Assembly: GCA_049642725.1 (NCBI GenBank)
Contig: JBARPC010000027.1
Coordinates: 1,010-65,009 of the forward strand
Reading direction: 5' to 3'
DNA from: Minisyncoccales bacterium
Lineage (GTDB): Bacteria; Patescibacteriota; Minisyncoccia; Minisyncoccales; JAGMDC01
DNA length: 64,000 nt
Shown: positions 36,806-41,434 of the stretch, in pieces
Position numbering within the stretch: the first letter of the stretch is position 1
Layout: every line of letters starts with the position of its first letter
Position numbers and translations under genes: made by a program
The notes under the pieces: model-generated
Told to the model about the DNA's origin: nothing
The model's input: the letters and a program-made list of their open reading frames with translations, nothing else
The model's database searches: none

Positions 36806-38494
36806 TTAAACTTCTATAATCACTGGTAAAACCATCGGTCTTCGCCGGGTTTTTTGAAATAAAAATTTACCGATTTTTTCCCTTACTTCTTCCTTAATAT
36901 TAGTCCAATTGATTGTTTTTTCTGAAACAATAGCTTGATTTATAATGTCTATGACCTGCTTTCTGGTTGCAGCAAGCAATGGTTTTGATTCTCTTAAATA
37001 AACAAAACCTCTTGATATGATGTCTGGAGAACCTTTAACTTTCCCGGTCTTTTTATCAATTATTGCCACAATAACAAACATTCCGTCTTCAGCTAAAACG
37101 TGCCTGTCTCTTAAAACAATCTCGCCAACATCACCAACGCCTAAACCGTCAACCATTATATAGTTTGAGGGGACAGTTTTTTTCTCAATATAAATTTTTT
37201 CTCTGCTTAGATTAATTATTTGGCCATTTTCAGCTATTACTATGTTTTTTTCTGGAATATCACCTGAAGAATAAGCAATTTCAGCGTGATTAACCAACAT
37301 TGAATATTGGCCGTGAATGGGCATAAAGAATTTTGGTCTCATAATTTGGAGCATTTCTTTTAATTCTTCCCGCTGGGCATGGCCGCCTGCATGAATATCC
37401 ATCATTTTATAATGGAACACTTTTGCTCCCTGTCTTAGAATATTATCTTTAACAAACTGGACCGTTCTTTCATTTCCTGGTATAACCGAAGAGGAGAGAA
37501 TTACTGAATCTCCTTTTTTAAATCTTAAAAATGGATAGTCGCCATTGCTTATTTTCATTAACATTGACGAATCTTCTCCTTGGGCGCCAGTGCAGAGAAA
37601 AGTTATTTGAAAATCCTGCAGATTTTTCATTTCTTTGGCAGATATAAGAGTTCCTTTTTTTGTTTTAATATATCCCAACATTTTACAAATTTCTACATTA
37701 GTTTTCATTGAATATCCTTCTATAACCACTTTTCTGTTGTATTTTTCTGACAAAGTAATTATTTGCTGGATTCTGTTAATTAAAGAAGCAAAAGTAGCAA
37801 CAATAATTCTCCCTTTTACTTTAATAAAGATTTTTTCTAAGTTTCTTTGGATGTCTTGTTCTGAAAGAGAATGGTTTTCTTCTTCAGCTCCAGTGGAATC
37901 AGACATTAATAACAAAATTTTTCTTTGAGAAAGCTCTTTCAGTTTCCTAAAATCAGTAGGCAGTTCATTTACTGGCGCATTATCAAATTTAAAATCAGAG
38001 GTGTGTAAAATATTCCCTGCTGGTGTTTGAATAAATAATCCTAAATTATCTGGAATATTATGGTTCATTCTAAAAAATTCAATTTTAAAAACACCAAGTG
38101 TTATTTTGCTTCCATTCTTTACTTCTTCTATGTTTAACTTTGGCTGGCTTGGAAAATCATCTTGTCTTTTCAGAATAATCCCTTTAGTTAATGGAGAGGC
38201 AAACATTGGCGGATTGCCGATTTTTTCAATAAAATATGGAACTGCGCCAATATGGTCATAATGTCCATGAGTAAAAACAATTCCTAAGATATTTTTCTTT
38301 TTATTATTAAGATAAGAGATATTAGGAATAATATAATCAATGCCGTGCATATCTTCTTCTGGCATTCTAAAACCCATATCAATAATCAAAATCTGGCCTT
38401 TGTATTCTAAGGCCATCATATTTCTGCCAACTTCGCCAAGCCCTCCTAAAGGGATGATTCGTAAGTTGTCGGTTATTTGTTGTTGAGGATTCAT
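36806..38494 (-). CDS. rnj: Ribonuclease J (beta-CASP metallo-beta-lactamase)
   Basis: HGHYDHIG motif, beta-CASP region and C-terminal domain. 562 aa. Confidence 0.92.
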   Translation of the reverse strand: MNPQQQITDNLRIIPLGGLGEVGRNMMALEYKGQILIIDMGFRMPEEDMHGIDYIIPNISYLNNKKKNILGIVFTHGHYDHIGAVPYFIEKIGNPPMFASPLTKGIILKRQDDFPSQPKLNIEEVKNGSKITLGVFKIEFFRMNHNIPDNLGLFIQTPAGNILHTSDFKFDNAPVNELPTDFRKLKELSQRKILLLMSDSTGAEEENHSLSEQDIQRNLEKIFIKVKGRIIVATFASLINRIQQIITLSEKYNRKVVIEGYSMKTNVEICKMLGYIKTKKGTLISAKEMKNLQDFQITFLCTGAQGEDSSMLMKISNGDYPFLRFKKGDSVILSSSVIPGNERTVQFVKDNILRQGAKVFHYKMMDIHAGGHAQREELKEMLQIMRPKFFMPIHGQYSMLVNHAEIAYSSGDIPEKNIVIAENGQIINLSREKIYIEKKTVPSNYIMVDGLGVGDVGEIVLRDRHVLAEDGMFVIVAIIDKKTGKVKGSPDIISRGFVYLRESKPLLAATRKQVIDIINQAIVSEKTINWTNIKEEVREKIGKFLFQKTRRRPMVLPVIIEV

Positions 38495-38504
38495 ATTATA
38501 TTAG

Positions 38505-38589
38505 TGCCGAGGGCGGGATTCGAACCCGCATGGAGTTTTCTCCACAACGTTCTGAACGTTGCGTGTCTAACCAGTTTCACCACCTCGGC
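38505..38589 (-). tRNA. tRNA-Leu (anticodon CAG)
   Basis: Reverse complement: acceptor GCCGAGG/CCTCGGC, anticodon arm CAACG-TTCAGAA-CGTTG, long variable arm, T-arm GCGGG-TTCGAAT-CCCGC. Confidence 0.85.
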
Positions 38590-38595
38590 AAAAGA

Positions 38596-39171
38596 TTATT
38601 TCAAAAAATCTAAATCTTTTGGCATTTTCTTTAGAGATTTTTCAAATCGCAGTTGAGGGATTTTTTTATAGTTTTTGTTTTTGAGCCAACCGGTTTTGGT
38701 ATAAAAATATCCCGCTCCCTTCATTTTTTCTAATTCGTCATAGATATTTTTATTTTTTATAGAAACCCAATTCGCGATTTTTAACTCTTTTTTTAAAGGA
38801 TTGATAGTTATGGCAGCATATTTTGGAGGAAAAATTACATATTCTCCCTTTTTTGCTTTAACAGCAATAATGTCTTCAATGGCCTTCCCTTTTGCTTTTT
38901 GCATCAAAAAAATCGCTTCTCCTTCAAGCACAATATAAAGTTCCTGTAAATCTTTTGAGTTCCTATTGCCTTTAGTTCTCACGAATTCCTTGCCTAACAT
39001 TCTTGGCGGAATAATTGTAATATCATATCTTAATTCGCCTTTTTTCTTCAAGCCACGGTGCATATAATACAACTCAAAATTCGGCGCATTTTTTGCCCAT
39101 TTTTTGTCATAGAGAACTGCCTTCATATCATTGAGATATCTTATATCTGGTTTTTTATTTTTTATTGCCAT
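38596..39171 (-). CDS. Cupin-type (archaeal-type) glucose-6-phosphate isomerase homologue lacking the metal-binding histidines
   Basis: Matches the cPGI signature T-x3-P-x3-G-x-E-x3-T-x-G...E-x-Y and PP-x3-(H)-x3-N, but reads TKGNRN and PPKYAAITIN where H-x-H and H are expected. Confidence 0.7.
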   Translation of the reverse strand: MAIKNKKPDIRYLNDMKAVLYDKKWAKNAPNFELYYMHRGLKKKGELRYDITIIPPRMLGKEFVRTKGNRNSKDLQELYIVLEGEAIFLMQKAKGKAIEDIIAVKAKKGEYVIFPPKYAAITINPLKKELKIANWVSIKNKNIYDELEKMKGAGYFYTKTGWLKNKNYKKIPQLRFEKSLKKMPKDLDFLK

Positions 39172-41186
39172 TTTCTCTTTGTTTTGATATACCAGTTTTC
39201 AATTTCATTAAATCTTTTTGAGGGATCAGCAATTATGCCTTGTTCCACTCCTTTTGTTTCTTTAGAAATAAAATAAAGATAATTCGGGCTGTATAAGAAA
39301 ATACATGGAGCATCGCTGATTAAAATTTCCTGGAATTTTTCTAACTTTTCTTTTCTTAATTCAATATCTTGAGTTTGTCTTGCATCTTCTAATAATTTAT
39401 CTGTTTCTTTGTTTTCATACATAGCTAAATTTAATCCCGGATGTATTTTTTGCAAAGAATGCCAGAAAGGATAAGGGTCGGGAATAACCGCTAATACTTC
39501 TCCGAAGAGCAGGGAGTCATATTTTCTTGGTTTTATAAAATTATTTTGAATGTTAGAAATAGAATAGCTTTGAATTTCAAGCTCTACTCCAATTTCTTTC
39601 CATTGTTCTTTTAATAATTCAGCTACTTTTTTAAGAACAGGGTCTTCAACTGTTACTAAGGAAAATTTTAGTTGTATGTTTTTGTAAGGGTCTCCAAAAC
39701 AAAGCTCATTAAGTTTTTCTCTAGTTGTTTTTCCCACTATTCCTGTTCCTTTTTTATATCCCCAGGGTTCAAGAATTTCTTCTTTATATTTTTCCTGAAA
39801 TCTAATTACTGCTGTTTTTGTTTTTGAGCCAAAATAACCAGTTATTTCTCCTTCTGGATATATTTCCGGCCCCACAATATCTGGATCAGCCAGGCATTTT
39901 TGGAGTTCTTCTACTTCTTTGCCTTTTGAACCGGTTGTTAATCTACTTTTGAATGTAAAAGCCAATTCTTTTTTAACAGTTTTTTCCCTGAAACCGCTTT
40001 CTGTTTCTTCAAATCCCTGCTCTGCTAAAATTTCTTTTGCCTTCTCTAAATTATACTCATAAATTTCAGCAGGCAGTTCAAAATCAAAAATTTCAGAAAG
40101 GATAGGTGATGCTATTGCCCTTCCCTGTCCTAATAAAGCTTTTTCAATAATTTCTTTTTTGTTAGTTCCAAAATTCAATGCCTGCCTTATATTTTTATCG
40201 TCTAAGATATTTGATTCATTAGGGTTAAAGAACACAGCAAAATATCTTGGCAGAACAAAGTTATATTCAGAAAAAGAAGTTCTAAAAAGATTCTTATTCT
40301 CAAAAGAGTTCAAAGAAAACCCTTTAATTTTATTTTGTTCGGCATCCTTAATAAGCGCTTCTTCGTTTTCAAAGAAATAAAAAATAATTTTAGAAATATA
40401 GGGCTTGTTATCAAAATAATTAGGATCTCTTTCTAATGTTAATGATTTTACAATACTTAGCTTTTTATCCGGGTCTATTTCTTTTTGGTCAACCTTTTTT
40501 ATTTTATAAGGACCGCAGCTTATTGGGTGAAGATTGTAAAAAGTTTGTGAAAAATTTTCAGGAGAAATATCCTGCCAGATATGGGCAGGCAGAATTTTTA
40601 AAGTTAATCGTTCTAAAAAGCCGCTGTATGGCTTGTTAAGTTTAAATTTAAGGGCATTATCTGATATTTTTTCTACTTCTACGCCTAACCAGTTTGTTCT
40701 AAGGTCGCTTTTATAATCAGAGTTTTGGATTGTTTTTATAGTAAAGATAATATCATCAGTAGAAAATTTTTCTCCATCTGACCAGACAATGTTTTCTTTT
40801 AAGTAAAAAATATATGTTCTGCCTTCGTCTTCTGATTTGTAATCTTTGGCAAGATCTGGAATAATTTCACCCTTATTATTGTATTTCATTAATCCAGAAA
40901 ACAATAATTCTGTTAAATCCCTGTCTACATCATTTGAAGTAGCATAAATAGGATTAATATATCTTGGCTGCCCGACAATTCCTTCAATATAAGTCCCTCC
41001 ATTTTTAGGAACGATTTCAGTGTTCTTGTAATATGAATTTGTTGCAAGGAATAAAGAAGAGAAAAGGAATAAACAAAAAAAGACAAGAAAACATTTTTTC
41101 TCTTTTTTATCTAAAGTTTTAAGCAATTGTTTCCATTGACCCAATGAAGGCCATTTTAGATTAGAGAACTTTTTGGAATGCATCAT
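39162..41186 (-). CDS. Family-5 ABC substrate-binding protein (Opp/Dpp-like) with an inserted peptidoglycan-binding (PG_binding_1-like) domain
   Basis: SBP_bac_5-type sequence (NGGTYIEGIVGQPRYINP...). The internal segment GSKGKEVEELQKCL...ITGYFGSKTKTAVIRFQEKY...GIVGKTTREKLNEL resembles a PG-binding repeat. The start is probably the MMHSKK methionines (about 41186), not 41249. Confidence 0.7.
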   Translation of the reverse strand: MMHSKKFSNLKWPSLGQWKQLLKTLDKKEKKCFLVFFCLFLFSSLFLATNSYYKNTEIVPKNGGTYIEGIVGQPRYINPIYATSNDVDRDLTELLFSGLMKYNNKGEIIPDLAKDYKSEDEGRTYIFYLKENIVWSDGEKFSTDDIIFTIKTIQNSDYKSDLRTNWLGVEVEKISDNALKFKLNKPYSGFLERLTLKILPAHIWQDISPENFSQTFYNLHPISCGPYKIKKVDQKEIDPDKKLSIVKSLTLERDPNYFDNKPYISKIIFYFFENEEALIKDAEQNKIKGFSLNSFENKNLFRTSFSEYNFVLPRYFAVFFNPNESNILDDKNIRQALNFGTNKKEIIEKALLGQGRAIASPILSEIFDFELPAEIYEYNLEKAKEILAEQGFEETESGFREKTVKKELAFTFKSRLTTGSKGKEVEELQKCLADPDIVGPEIYPEGEITGYFGSKTKTAVIRFQEKYKEEILEPWGYKKGTGIVGKTTREKLNELCFGDPYKNIQLKFSLVTVEDPVLKKVAELLKEQWKEIGVELEIQSYSISNIQNNFIKPRKYDSLLFGEVLAVIPDPYPFWHSLQKIHPGLNLAMYENKETDKLLEDARQTQDIELRKEKLEKFQEILISDAPCIFLYSPNYLYFISKETKGVEQGIIADPSKRFNEIENWYIKTKRKWQ

Positions 41187-41434
41187 TAGAGACCAAGAGT
41201 TAAAAGAGATAACCCTATAAAAAGTATTCCTAAGGCAATAGTAGCCCAAAATATTTTTTGCTGGATTCCTCGTCTAGTAGCGTAAAATCCACTGCCTTCA
41301 CCTCCGCCTCCGCCTCCAAAAGCAGAGCCAAGAGCAGTGCCTCTTTGTTGAAAAAGTATAAGGATAATTAAGAGAACGGCAATAGCGATTTGTATATAAG
41401 GAATATATGTAACCATAAAATTTCTAATTTTCAA
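41186..41434 (-). CDS. secG: Preprotein translocase subunit SecG
   Basis: Two TM helices separated by a Gly-rich loop (LFQQRGTALGSAFGGGGGGEGSG). The start may be the internal MVTY at 41416. Confidence 0.8.
   Translation of the reverse strand: MKIRNFMVTYIPYIQIAIAVLLIILILFQQRGTALGSAFGGGGGGEGSGFYATRRGIQQKIFWATIALGILFIGLSLLTLGL

What the first reader, a model, noticed from the sequence alone, without database searches (positions are those of the whole stretch)
38596..39171. Cupin-type phosphoglucose isomerase homologue with all three metal-binding histidines substituted
The protein aligns residue for residue with the archaeal cupin PGI signature as I recall it from the literature: T-x3-P-x3-G-x-E-x3-T-x-G-H-x-H-x6-11-E-x-Y and P-P-x3-H-x3-N. 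The metal ligands in the Pyrococcus enzyme are two His of the first motif, a Glu, and the His of the second motif.

Here the sequence is TIIPPRMLGKEFVRTKG-N-R-N-SKDLQ-E-L-Y and PPKYA-A-ITIN. Every scaffold position is kept and the Glu is kept, but His-x-His has become Asn-x-Asn and the third His has become Ala.

This indicates a metal-independent, inactive or re-purposed cupin, for example a sugar-phosphate binding protein, in a genome where glycolytic completeness is a key metabolic question.
Basis: partly seen in the sequence, partly recalled or inferred. Interest (0 to 1): 0.55.

Follow-up and report, generated by a model that had tools for sequence, protein, structure and literature searches.

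The report
Cupin sugar-phosphate isomerase without metal histidines
A small Patescibacteria genome encodes a well-conserved relative of the 'metal-dependent' cupin glucose-6-phosphate isomerase in which all three metal-binding histidines are replaced, and this variant takes the place of the normal enzyme at the same locus in about a fifth of related genomes that carry the gene, so it is probably a working enzyme with altered chemistry, not a dead gene.

Summary
The ORF at 38596-39171 (minus strand, 191 aa) matches PF06560 (E 2e-27). Its AlphaFold model (pLDDT 96.5) matches archaeal cupin PGIs (TM about 0.75). Alignment to the P. furiosus and T. litoralis enzymes puts N69, N71 and A120 at ligands His88, His90 and His136. 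Glu97 is kept as E77.

It is not a one-off. 113 of 259 sampled family members carry N-x-N plus V/A/I, with both Asn invariant. dN/dS is 0.09-0.19, as in canonical forms. In 201 genomes of the same order, 100 carry the cupin: 78 canonical, 22 N-type. Both always lie in the same secG-SBP-cupin-RNase J locus. Only one mixed bin holds both. None of the 100 has a conventional PGI.

N-type genes form one clade on the full gene tree but are scattered on trees of the flanking genes. The N/H difference lies in residues 65-150. Synonymous sites hint that this core is exchanged by recombination.

Best reading (about 0.45): still a hexose-6-phosphate isomerase that no longer uses a His3Glu transition-metal site. 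A non-catalytic binder or a changed substrate is not excluded. A decaying relic is rejected. First readers noted the same variant on two other genomes in this scan. I found no paper that mentions it. It is a new variant of a known kind.

The parts
38596..39171 (-). N-type cupin PGI homologue, 191 aa (P0001)
   Evidence: ORF. PF06560 match at E 2.2e-27, 95.9 bits. AF2 model pLDDT 96.5. Foldseek top hits are T. litoralis and P. furiosus cPGI, TM 0.72-0.77.
38935..39018 (-). Cupin motif 1 (residues 52-79): T52, P56, G60, E62, T66 and G68 kept; N69-R70-N71 in place of H-x-H; E77 (= Glu97) and Y79 kept
   Evidence: Translation. Alignment to PDB chains. Column statistics.
38959..38967 (-). N69-R70-N71, replacing ligands His88 and His90
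   Evidence: N69 and N71 are invariant in 113/113 N-type sequences. R70 is present in 97/113.
38800..38829 (-). Cupin motif 2 (residues 115-124), PPKYAAITIN; A120 replaces ligand His136
   Evidence: Position 120 is V/A/I in the N-type and H in 133/133 canonical forms.
38740..38754 (-). Active-site loop N140-K-N142-I-Y144. N142 aligns with PfPGI His158 and Y144 with Tyr160. N140 is the fourth perfectly type-specific column.
   Evidence: Profile alignment. Column 140 is N/T in the N-type and C/F/S in the H-type; column 142 is N in 22/22 N-type and S/N/G in the H-type. Translation.
39162..41249 (-). Upstream gene: family-5 solute-binding protein with a PG_binding_1 insert. Its stop overlaps the cupin start by 10 nt.
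   Evidence: Pfam. A homologue lies next to the cupin in 100 of 101 loci of the order.
38504..38589 (-). tRNA-Leu(CAG) directly downstream of the cupin gene
   Evidence: ARAGORN.
36806..38494 (-). RNase J, the conserved downstream neighbour
   Evidence: Pfam. Present in 77 of 101 loci.

Best explanation
The gene encodes a selected, derived form ('N-type') of the Patescibacterial cupin-type phosphoglucose isomerase. The His3 part of the His3Glu metal site has become Asn, Asn and a small hydrophobic residue. The rest of the sugar-phosphate pocket and the catalytic Glu are kept.

It occupies the same chromosomal slot as the canonical enzyme and replaces it. The most likely function is therefore still interconversion of fructose-6-phosphate and glucose-6-phosphate, done without a tightly bound transition metal.

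Inferred mechanism. Glu77 (= Glu97) shuttles the C1/C2 proton through a cis-enediol(ate). The amides of Asn69 and Asn71, helped by the type-specific Asn140 and Asn142 in the lid loop, bind and polarise O1/O2 in place of the metal. This resembles metal-free aldose-ketose isomerases such as TIM. Alternatively the O-only site (2 Asn plus Glu) holds a hard cation such as Mg2+.

In this genome the enzyme would link F6P to G6P. F6P is made by the class I aldolase and FBPase and consumed by GlmS. G6P is made by a ROK kinase and is convertible by a PGM/PMM-type mutase.

Shown: fold, family, substitutions, conservation, selection, synteny, mutual exclusion. Inferred: activity, lack of metal, roles of the Asn residues.
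For: - Family and fold: PF06560 at E 2e-27. AF2 model pLDDT 96.5 with cPGI structures as the only close matches.
- Non-ligand active-site residues kept and invariant in the N-type: T52 (= Thr71), T66 (= Thr85), E77 (= Glu97), Y79 (= Tyr99), Y144 (= Tyr160), N124.
- N69 and N71 invariant in 113/113. A mere loss of function would give varied residues.
- dN/dS of N-N pairs is 0.09-0.19, like close canonical pairs at 0.11-0.19.
- Positional orthology: SBP-cupin-RNase J holds for both types.
- Mutual exclusion: of 100 cupin-bearing genomes in the order, 78 are H-type and 22 N-type. Both occur only in G096, a 5%-contaminated bin that also has two FBPase hits.
- No other PGI. PF00342 is absent from all 100 cupin genomes (7 of the other 101 have it). 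In G000, the one genome checked for it, the SIS-type PGI/PMI is also absent; its only hit is GlmS.
- Metabolic fit in G000: GlmS, ROK kinase, PGM/PMM-type mutase, class I aldolase plus FBPase, TIM and GAPDH are present. PFK, transketolase, transaldolase and class II FBA were not found.
- FBPase co-occurs with the cupin for both types: N 6/22, H 10/78, no cupin 3/101.
Against: [quoted passage not shown] One proposed mechanism, a hydride shift, needs the metal (PMC8378251).
- No metal-free cPGI has been reported.
- No cupin PGI of Patescibacteria, canonical or N-type, has been assayed, so even the canonical role here rests on homology at 22-27% identity.
- About half of the genomes of the order have neither a cupin nor a conventional PGI. 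A PGI is therefore not essential there, and mutual exclusion is weaker evidence than it looks.
- I had no model coordinates, so the geometry of the Asn cluster was not checked.
- Genome counts are not phylogenetically independent.
Confidence: 0.45

Rival explanations
1. Non-catalytic sugar-phosphate binder (pseudoenzyme). The pocket still binds G6P, F6P or a similar ligand, but without the metal no isomerisation occurs. The protein would act as a sensor, buffer or partner of another protein.
For: - All three His ligands of a family described as strictly metal-dependent are gone.
- Binding residues are kept.
- Many genomes of the order live without any detectable PGI, so loss of activity would be tolerated.
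- Metal-free ligand-binding cupins exist, for example the AraC sugar-binding domain (general knowledge).
Against: - The catalytic Glu stays invariant, and four Asn are fixed exactly around the former metal site.
- The variant replaces the canonical enzyme in the same slot and never stands beside it, apart from one mixed bin.
- No partner or DNA-binding domain is fused or specifically linked.
- Selection is as strong as on canonical forms.
Confidence: 0.25
2. Re-purposed enzyme. The remodelled site catalyses a different reaction on a sugar phosphate, or acts on a different substrate. Examples are phosphomannose or another hexose/pentose-phosphate isomerase, an epimerase, or a ring-opening/anomerase step.
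For: - About 20-30 columns differ systematically between the types, and they cluster in residues 65-150 around the pocket and lid loop (positions 65, 70, 72, 80, 102, 111, 119, 120, 140, 142, 143, 146, 147).
- Metal-free cupin epimerases and isomerases exist, such as RmlC and FdtA (general knowledge).
Against: - The phosphate- and sugar-binding residues shared with the archaeal enzymes are unchanged.
- No new gene neighbour distinguishes N loci from H loci.
- N-type genomes would then lack any PGI while keeping the same surrounding genes (FBPase, ROK) as H-type genomes.
Confidence: 0.2
3. Decaying relic: an inactivated PGI gene on its way to loss.
For: Only the loss of the three ligands itself.
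Against: - Intact ORFs in all 22 genomes and in more than 100 metagenomic clusters.
- Both Asn are invariant.
- dN/dS is about 0.15.
- The AF2 model has very high confidence.
Confidence: 0.03

Closest known systems
Archaeal cupin-type phosphoglucose isomerases (P. furiosus PfPGI: PDB 1qxj, 1x7n, 1x82, 2gc0; T. litoralis: 1j3p)
   Same: - Same Pfam family (PF06560) and same fold (TM 0.72-0.77).
- Same motif scaffold: T-x3-P-x3-G-x-E-x3-T-x-G ... E-x-Y and P-P-x3-[ ]-x3-N.
- Glu97, Thr71, Thr85, Tyr99 and Tyr160 equivalents are kept.
   Different: - His88, His90 and His136 are N, N and A.
- His158 is N142 and Tyr152 is V136/W135.
- The spacer to the Glu is 5 residues, not 6.
- Only 22-27% identity. 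The host is bacterial, mesophilic and has an ultra-small genome.
Canonical HxH cupin PGI of Patescibacteria (for example P0074 of the same genus, G171; P0105/P0273 annotated Candidatus Nealsonbacteria), counted as PGI by Jaffe et al. 2020 (PMC7304191)
   Same: - Same locus (SBP-cupin-RNase J) and same length.
- 64-73% identity overall, and 84% in the terminal thirds for the same-genus pair.
   Different: - The central segment (residues 65-150) is only about 56% identical.
- Four perfectly type-specific columns (69, 71, 120, 140) and about 25 biased ones.
- The canonical forms keep the full His3Glu ligand set.
Metal-free aldose-ketose isomerases using a Glu base (triose-phosphate isomerase, conventional PGI superfamily)
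   Same: Proposed working principle only: a carboxylate base plus neutral or cationic H-bond donors (Asn/His/Lys) stabilise a cis-enediolate without a metal. This is general knowledge and was not tested here.
   Different: Unrelated folds and no homology. The resemblance is a mechanistic analogy, not membership.

Membership tests
Cupin-type PGI (PF06560 / cPGI) | Significant match to the family profile over its full length | tested here: met
   PF06560 at E 2.2e-27, 95.9 bits against a cut-off of 20.7, profile positions 5-181 of 182.
Cupin-type PGI (PF06560 / cPGI) | cPGI fold (cupin barrel with N- and C-terminal extensions) | tested here: met
   AF2 pLDDT 96.5, pTM 0.92. The twelve best Foldseek PDB hits are all cPGI-derived chains (eleven cPGI structures plus 3sxw, an engineered protein whose sequence search names it glucose-6-phosphate isomerase), E 2e-13 to 9e-12. 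The next hits drop to E 1e-6.
Cupin-type PGI (PF06560 / cPGI) | Metal-ligand set His88, His90, Glu97, His136 (PfPGI numbering) | tested here: not met
   The residues are N69, N71, E77 and A120. Only the Glu is kept. Ligand identities come from PMC6627849.
Cupin-type PGI (PF06560 / cPGI) | Non-ligand substrate and catalytic residues (Thr71, Thr85, Tyr99, Tyr160; His158, Tyr152) | tested here: inconclusive
   T52, T66, Y79 and Y144 are kept and invariant. The His158 position is Asn and the Tyr152 position is Val/Trp. The canonical Patescibacterial forms also lack these two, with Ser/Asn at the His158 position.
Cupin-type PGI (PF06560 / cPGI) | Dependence on a divalent transition metal (Fe2+, Ni2+ and others) | not testable with these tools
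   This needs metal analysis and activity assays. The sequence predicts that it is not met.
Cupin-type PGI (PF06560 / cPGI) | G6P <-> F6P isomerase activity | not testable with these tools
   Only indirect evidence: same locus as the canonical form, mutual exclusion with it, and no other PGI found.
Conventional PGI superfamily (PF00342; SIS-type PGI/PMI TIGR02128) | Profile match | tested here: not met
   No PF00342 match in the 95%-complete genome. The only TIGR02128 hit (35 bits, cut-off 214) is the SIS domain of GlmS.

The most novel reading that the evidence does not exclude
The N-type is the first lineage of cupin aldose-ketose isomerases that has dispensed with the transition metal. Four Asn and the conserved Glu do the chemistry, or a Mg-type site replaces the Fe/Ni site. 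Its active-site core (about residues 65-150) behaves as a cassette that is swapped into the resident gene by intragenic recombination between Patescibacteria lineages. Related species therefore alternate between a metal-dependent and a metal-free version of the same enzyme.
Probability: 0.3. Interest if true: 0.75.

Novelty: new variant of a known kind. Interest (0 to 1): 0.55.

Why it matters
- Cupin PGIs are textbook 'strictly metal-dependent' enzymes whose mechanism (hydride shift or cis-enediol) is still debated. A natural, conserved, selected variant without the three His ligands is a ready-made experiment. If it is active, the metal is not needed for the chemistry.
- Metabolic reconstructions of Patescibacteria/CPR and NCBI annotation count every PF06560 hit as PGI (PMC7304191). 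About one in five such genes in this order lacks the ligand set, so those calls rest on an untested assumption.
- The same-locus alternation of two active-site types, discordant with the flanking genes, is an unusually clean case for studying how an enzyme's cofactor dependence turns over in streamlined genomes.

Tried and rejected
- **Metal-supply idea.** I asked whether N-type genomes lack a Fe2+ importer. True FeoB occurs in only 3-4 of 201 genomes and in none with a cupin, so nothing can be learnt from it.
- **Link to glucokinase.** ROK kinase is found in N 7/22, H 13/78 and no cupin 25/101. There is no association.
- **Ancient paralogues with differential loss.** This is disfavoured. H-N identity rises with flank identity (r 0.62), the same-genus H/N pair is 72% identical, and the terminal thirds co-diverge with the flanks whatever the type.
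- **Whole-gene recent transfer from one donor.** This is disfavoured. N-N identity spans 42-87% and tracks flank identity (r 0.76).
- **AU test.** The test of the family-f1 clade on the cupin alignment did not finish in the time limit.
- **Column dropping.** Dropping the 30 most type-associated columns dissolves the N clade (10 changes, none strongly supported). The procedure removes true synapomorphies by design, so it decides nothing.
- **Primary papers.** The primary cPGI papers I tried (Hansen 2005 J Bacteriol and FEBS J, Berrisford 2003) are not held. Statements on metal dependence come from secondary citations.
- **NCBIfam.** No model covers this protein.
- **Model geometry.** Model coordinates cannot be read, so distances around N69, N71, N140 and N142 were not measured.

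Full report
**1. What is there**

Window 38596-39171 holds a 191-aa ORF on the minus strand (P0001). It lies in a minus-strand row of genes:
- secG (41186-41434)
- a family-5 solute-binding protein with a PG_binding_1 insert (39162-41249), whose stop overlaps the cupin start by 10 nt
- the cupin
- tRNA-Leu(CAG) (38504-38589)
- RNase J (36806-38494)

The protein matches Pfam PF06560, the cupin glucose-6-phosphate isomerase family, over the whole profile (E 2.2e-27, 95.9 bits). No NCBIfam model covers it. An AlphaFold2 model built on 109 relatives has pLDDT 96.5. Its twelve best PDB matches are all cPGI-derived chains: T. litoralis and P. furiosus cupin PGI structures plus one engineered protein (3sxw) that the PDB sequence search labels glucose-6-phosphate isomerase. 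TM is 0.72-0.77 at 22-27% identity, followed by a large gap to other cupins.

**2. The observation**

Sequence and profile alignments to the solved enzymes pair TKG-N-R-N with TKG-H-F/Y-H and PPKYA-A-ITIN with PPYWA-H-RTVN. The Mn/Fe ligands of the Pyrococcus enzyme are His88, His90, Glu97 and His136 (PMC6627849). The window protein therefore has N69, N71, E77 and A120. Three His are lost and the Glu is kept.

The only slip is the spacer before the Glu. It is 5 residues, not 6-11, and this is a feature of the whole Patescibacterial group. In the lid loop, PfPGI His158 aligns with N142 and Tyr160 with Y144.

**3. It is a family, not an accident**

A word-seeded search found 950 relatives. Nearly all of the closest 120 carry TKGN[R/C/H]N. 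I combined these with 150 representatives from an exhaustive HMMER search, giving 259 sequences.
- 113 are 'N-type': N-x-N with V/A/I at the His136 position.
- 133 are canonical: H-x-H...H.
- The Glu is present in 258 of 259.

Within the N-type, N69, N71, K67, E77, Y79, N124, N134, W135, N142, Y144, W162, N165 and Y168 are invariant. No new conserved His, Cys or Asp appears. Intermediates such as NRN...H or HYN...H are single cases.

Pairwise dN/dS among N-type genes is 0.09-0.19 (median 0.16). Close canonical pairs give 0.11-0.19. The protein is under ordinary purifying selection, so a decaying relic is excluded.

NCBI names these proteins 'glucose-6-phosphate isomerase'. Jaffe et al. 2020 counted PF06560 hits as the PGI of some CPR lineages, with no mention of the ligands in the passages I read (PMC7304191). 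Three literature searches found no mention of the variant.

**4. Distribution and genomic position**

The window's genome (G000) is 800 kb and 95% complete. It has one PF06560 gene, no PF00342 PGI and no SIS-type PGI/PMI. The only TIGR02128 hit is GlmS.

In an even sample of 201 species genomes of the same order:
- 100 carry the cupin.
- 7 carry a conventional PGI, and none of those 7 has the cupin.
- Typing all 101 cupin loci gave 78 canonical and 22 N-type genomes.
- Only G096 has both. It is a 5%-contaminated bin that also holds two FBPase hits, so it is probably a mixed bin.

Both types sit in the same slot. The SBP gene is adjacent in 100 of 101 loci and RNase J in 77. Within the window's own genus, G000, G105 and G142 are N-type, while G171 is canonical (HYH) at the same position.

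Outside the order, a DNA pattern for E-x3-TKGNxN found one genuine N-type among 287 genomes of the class. It is G360, with TKGNRN / PPNYEIITIN, again right after the SBP gene. There was also one chance hit.

**5. How the two types are related**

- **Trees.** On a tree of 259 proteins without the ligand columns, 111 of 113 N-type sequences form one clade nested among Patescibacterial HxH forms. On an IQ-TREE of the 99 genome-derived genes, all 22 N-type genes form one clade (SH-aLRT 99). On trees of the flanking genes the N/H label is nearly random. The SBP tree needs 16 changes (at least 12 forced by well-supported branches; shuffled mean 19.8). The RNase J tree needs 10.
- **Identity against flanks.** Cupin identity tracks flank identity within N-N (r 0.76), H-H (0.54) and even H-N pairs (0.62). 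This argues against both whole-gene transfer from one recent donor and ancient paralogy.
- **Where the difference lies.** G000 against same-genus G171 is 84% identical in residues 1-64 plus 151-191 but 56% in 65-150. Across all pairs, the termini co-diverge with the flanks whatever the type. Central H-N identity stays at 0.43-0.48 however close the genomes are.
- **Synonymous sites.** I measured synonymous-codon identity at conserved residues for close pairs (SBP identity of at least 0.6). In N-N pairs the core is more alike than its surroundings (0.637 against 0.58). In H-H pairs it is equal (0.573 against 0.56-0.58). In H-N pairs it is less alike (0.522 against 0.55). The saturation baseline is 0.45-0.48. 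For G000-G171 alone the figures are 24/45 against 517/754 (Fisher p 0.048).
- **Reading.** These effects are modest and the pairs are not independent. Their direction fits exchange of the central, active-site-bearing segment by recombination within a conserved locus (my estimate about 0.6) better than a dozen parallel re-inventions of some 25 substitutions (about 0.3). Dropping the 30 most type-associated columns dissolves the N clade without creating supported conflicts, which decides nothing.

**6. Function**

[quoted passage not shown] The mechanism is still debated between a metal-assisted hydride shift and a Glu97-based cis-enediol route (PMC8378251).

Several things are kept or newly fixed in the N-type:
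- the catalytic Glu
- the Thr/Tyr residues shared with the archaeal pocket
- an invariant pair of Asn at the former His positions
- two further type-specific Asn in the lid loop (140, and 142 at the His158 position)

The canonical forms of the order mostly have Cys at 140 (57 of 77) and Ser at 142. This looks like a rebuilt polar site, not an abandoned one.

The N-type also replaces the canonical gene in situ. N-type genomes have no other recognisable PGI. They share the co-occurrence with class-1 FBPase: N 6/22, H 10/78, no cupin 3/101 (kin are not independent).

In G000 the surrounding metabolism makes F6P/G6P interconversion useful. Present are a class I aldolase (NF005321) next to a class-1 FBPase, plus TIM, GAPDH, GlmS (TIGR01135, 728 bits), a PGM/PMM- or GlmM-type mutase and a ROK kinase. 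PFK, transketolase, transaldolase and class II aldolase were not found.

I therefore rank the readings as follows:
- a still-active hexose-6-phosphate isomerase without a His-bound transition metal, either an Asn-stabilised enediolate or a hard cation in an O-only site: 0.45
- a non-catalytic sugar-phosphate binder: 0.25
- a changed substrate or reaction: 0.20
- a relic: 0.03

Weak points:
- No Patescibacterial cupin PGI has ever been assayed.
- Half the order lacks any detectable PGI, so the function is dispensable there.
- I could not inspect model coordinates.

**7. Comparison and novelty**

By profile and fold the protein belongs to the cPGI family. It fails the family's defining ligand set. 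It should be filed as a divergent subgroup of PF06560, not as a 'metal-dependent cPGI'. In the Hansen nomenclature it is not a member by motif.

Metal-free cupins are common in the superfamily (RmlC, AraC domain, seed globulins; general knowledge). The loss itself is therefore not categorically new. A conserved ligand-less clade inside the cPGI family, alternating with the canonical form at one locus, appears undescribed.

First readers of this scan noted the same variant on two other genomes (e1-2037528, e1-4407902). Those notes are unchecked and add no independent evidence. Other notes place canonical forms next to galU and PMM (e1-3391812, e1-1069995), which fits a role in feeding hexose phosphates to nucleotide sugars.

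**8. Verdict**

'Inactive' is unlikely. 'Metal-independent' or 're-purposed' remains open.
- This is a new variant of a known kind, of moderate interest (0.55).
- The decisive test is cheap: assay and metal analysis of the N-type and its same-genus canonical twin.

Noticed in passing
window 39162-41249 (-); 100 of 101 related loci: A family-5 solute-binding protein with an inserted PG_binding_1 domain lies directly upstream of the cupin gene in virtually every genome of the order that has the cupin, and overlaps it by 10 nt here. Within the ±1.5-kb flanks examined no permease or ATPase gene follows it. The reason for this tight and ancient pairing is unexplained.
   Followed up: partly
L001, L034, L084, L085 and the other cupin loci (L004-L103): The N/H state is one clade on the cupin tree but nearly random on the trees of the two flanking genes. 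The type difference is confined to codons 65-150. Synonymous sites there are more alike among N carriers, and less alike between N and H, than in the flanks. This suggests an exchanged active-site cassette.
   Followed up: partly
G096: L080 (N-type, complete) and L081 (HYH, cut by contig end): This is the only genome with both cupin types. It also has two FBPase hits and 5% contamination, so it is probably two populations binned together and not true paralogues.
   Followed up: partly
G000:C4 (L106 1387-2340 and 2348-3247, minus strand): A class I (DhnA-type, NF005321) aldolase and a class-1 FBPase sit side by side next to ribosomal protein L25. With TIM and GAPDH present and no PFK, transketolase or transaldolase found, the upper pathway looks gluconeogenic only.
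   Followed up: partly
order sample of 201 genomes: True FeoB was found in only 3-4 genomes. About half of the genomes have neither a cupin nor a conventional PGI.
   Followed up: no
cupin alignment column 140 (window residue N140): Canonical forms of this order mostly carry a Cys here (57 of 77), in the lid loop two residues before the His158-equivalent. N-type forms have Asn or Thr. A second-shell or redox role of that Cys in the metal enzymes is conceivable.
   Followed up: no
G040:C5:24573-25415 and G160:C28:1900-2955: The ROK kinase match of G040 contains 2 TAA stops. The conventional PGI match of G160 contains a TGA and a TAA. These may be pseudogenes or assembly errors.
   Followed up: no
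L109 1123-1722 (-), genome G360 of another order: A genuine N-type protein outside the order has Glu-Ile (PPNYEIITIN) at positions 119-120, which places a carboxylate next to the former His136 site.
   Followed up: no
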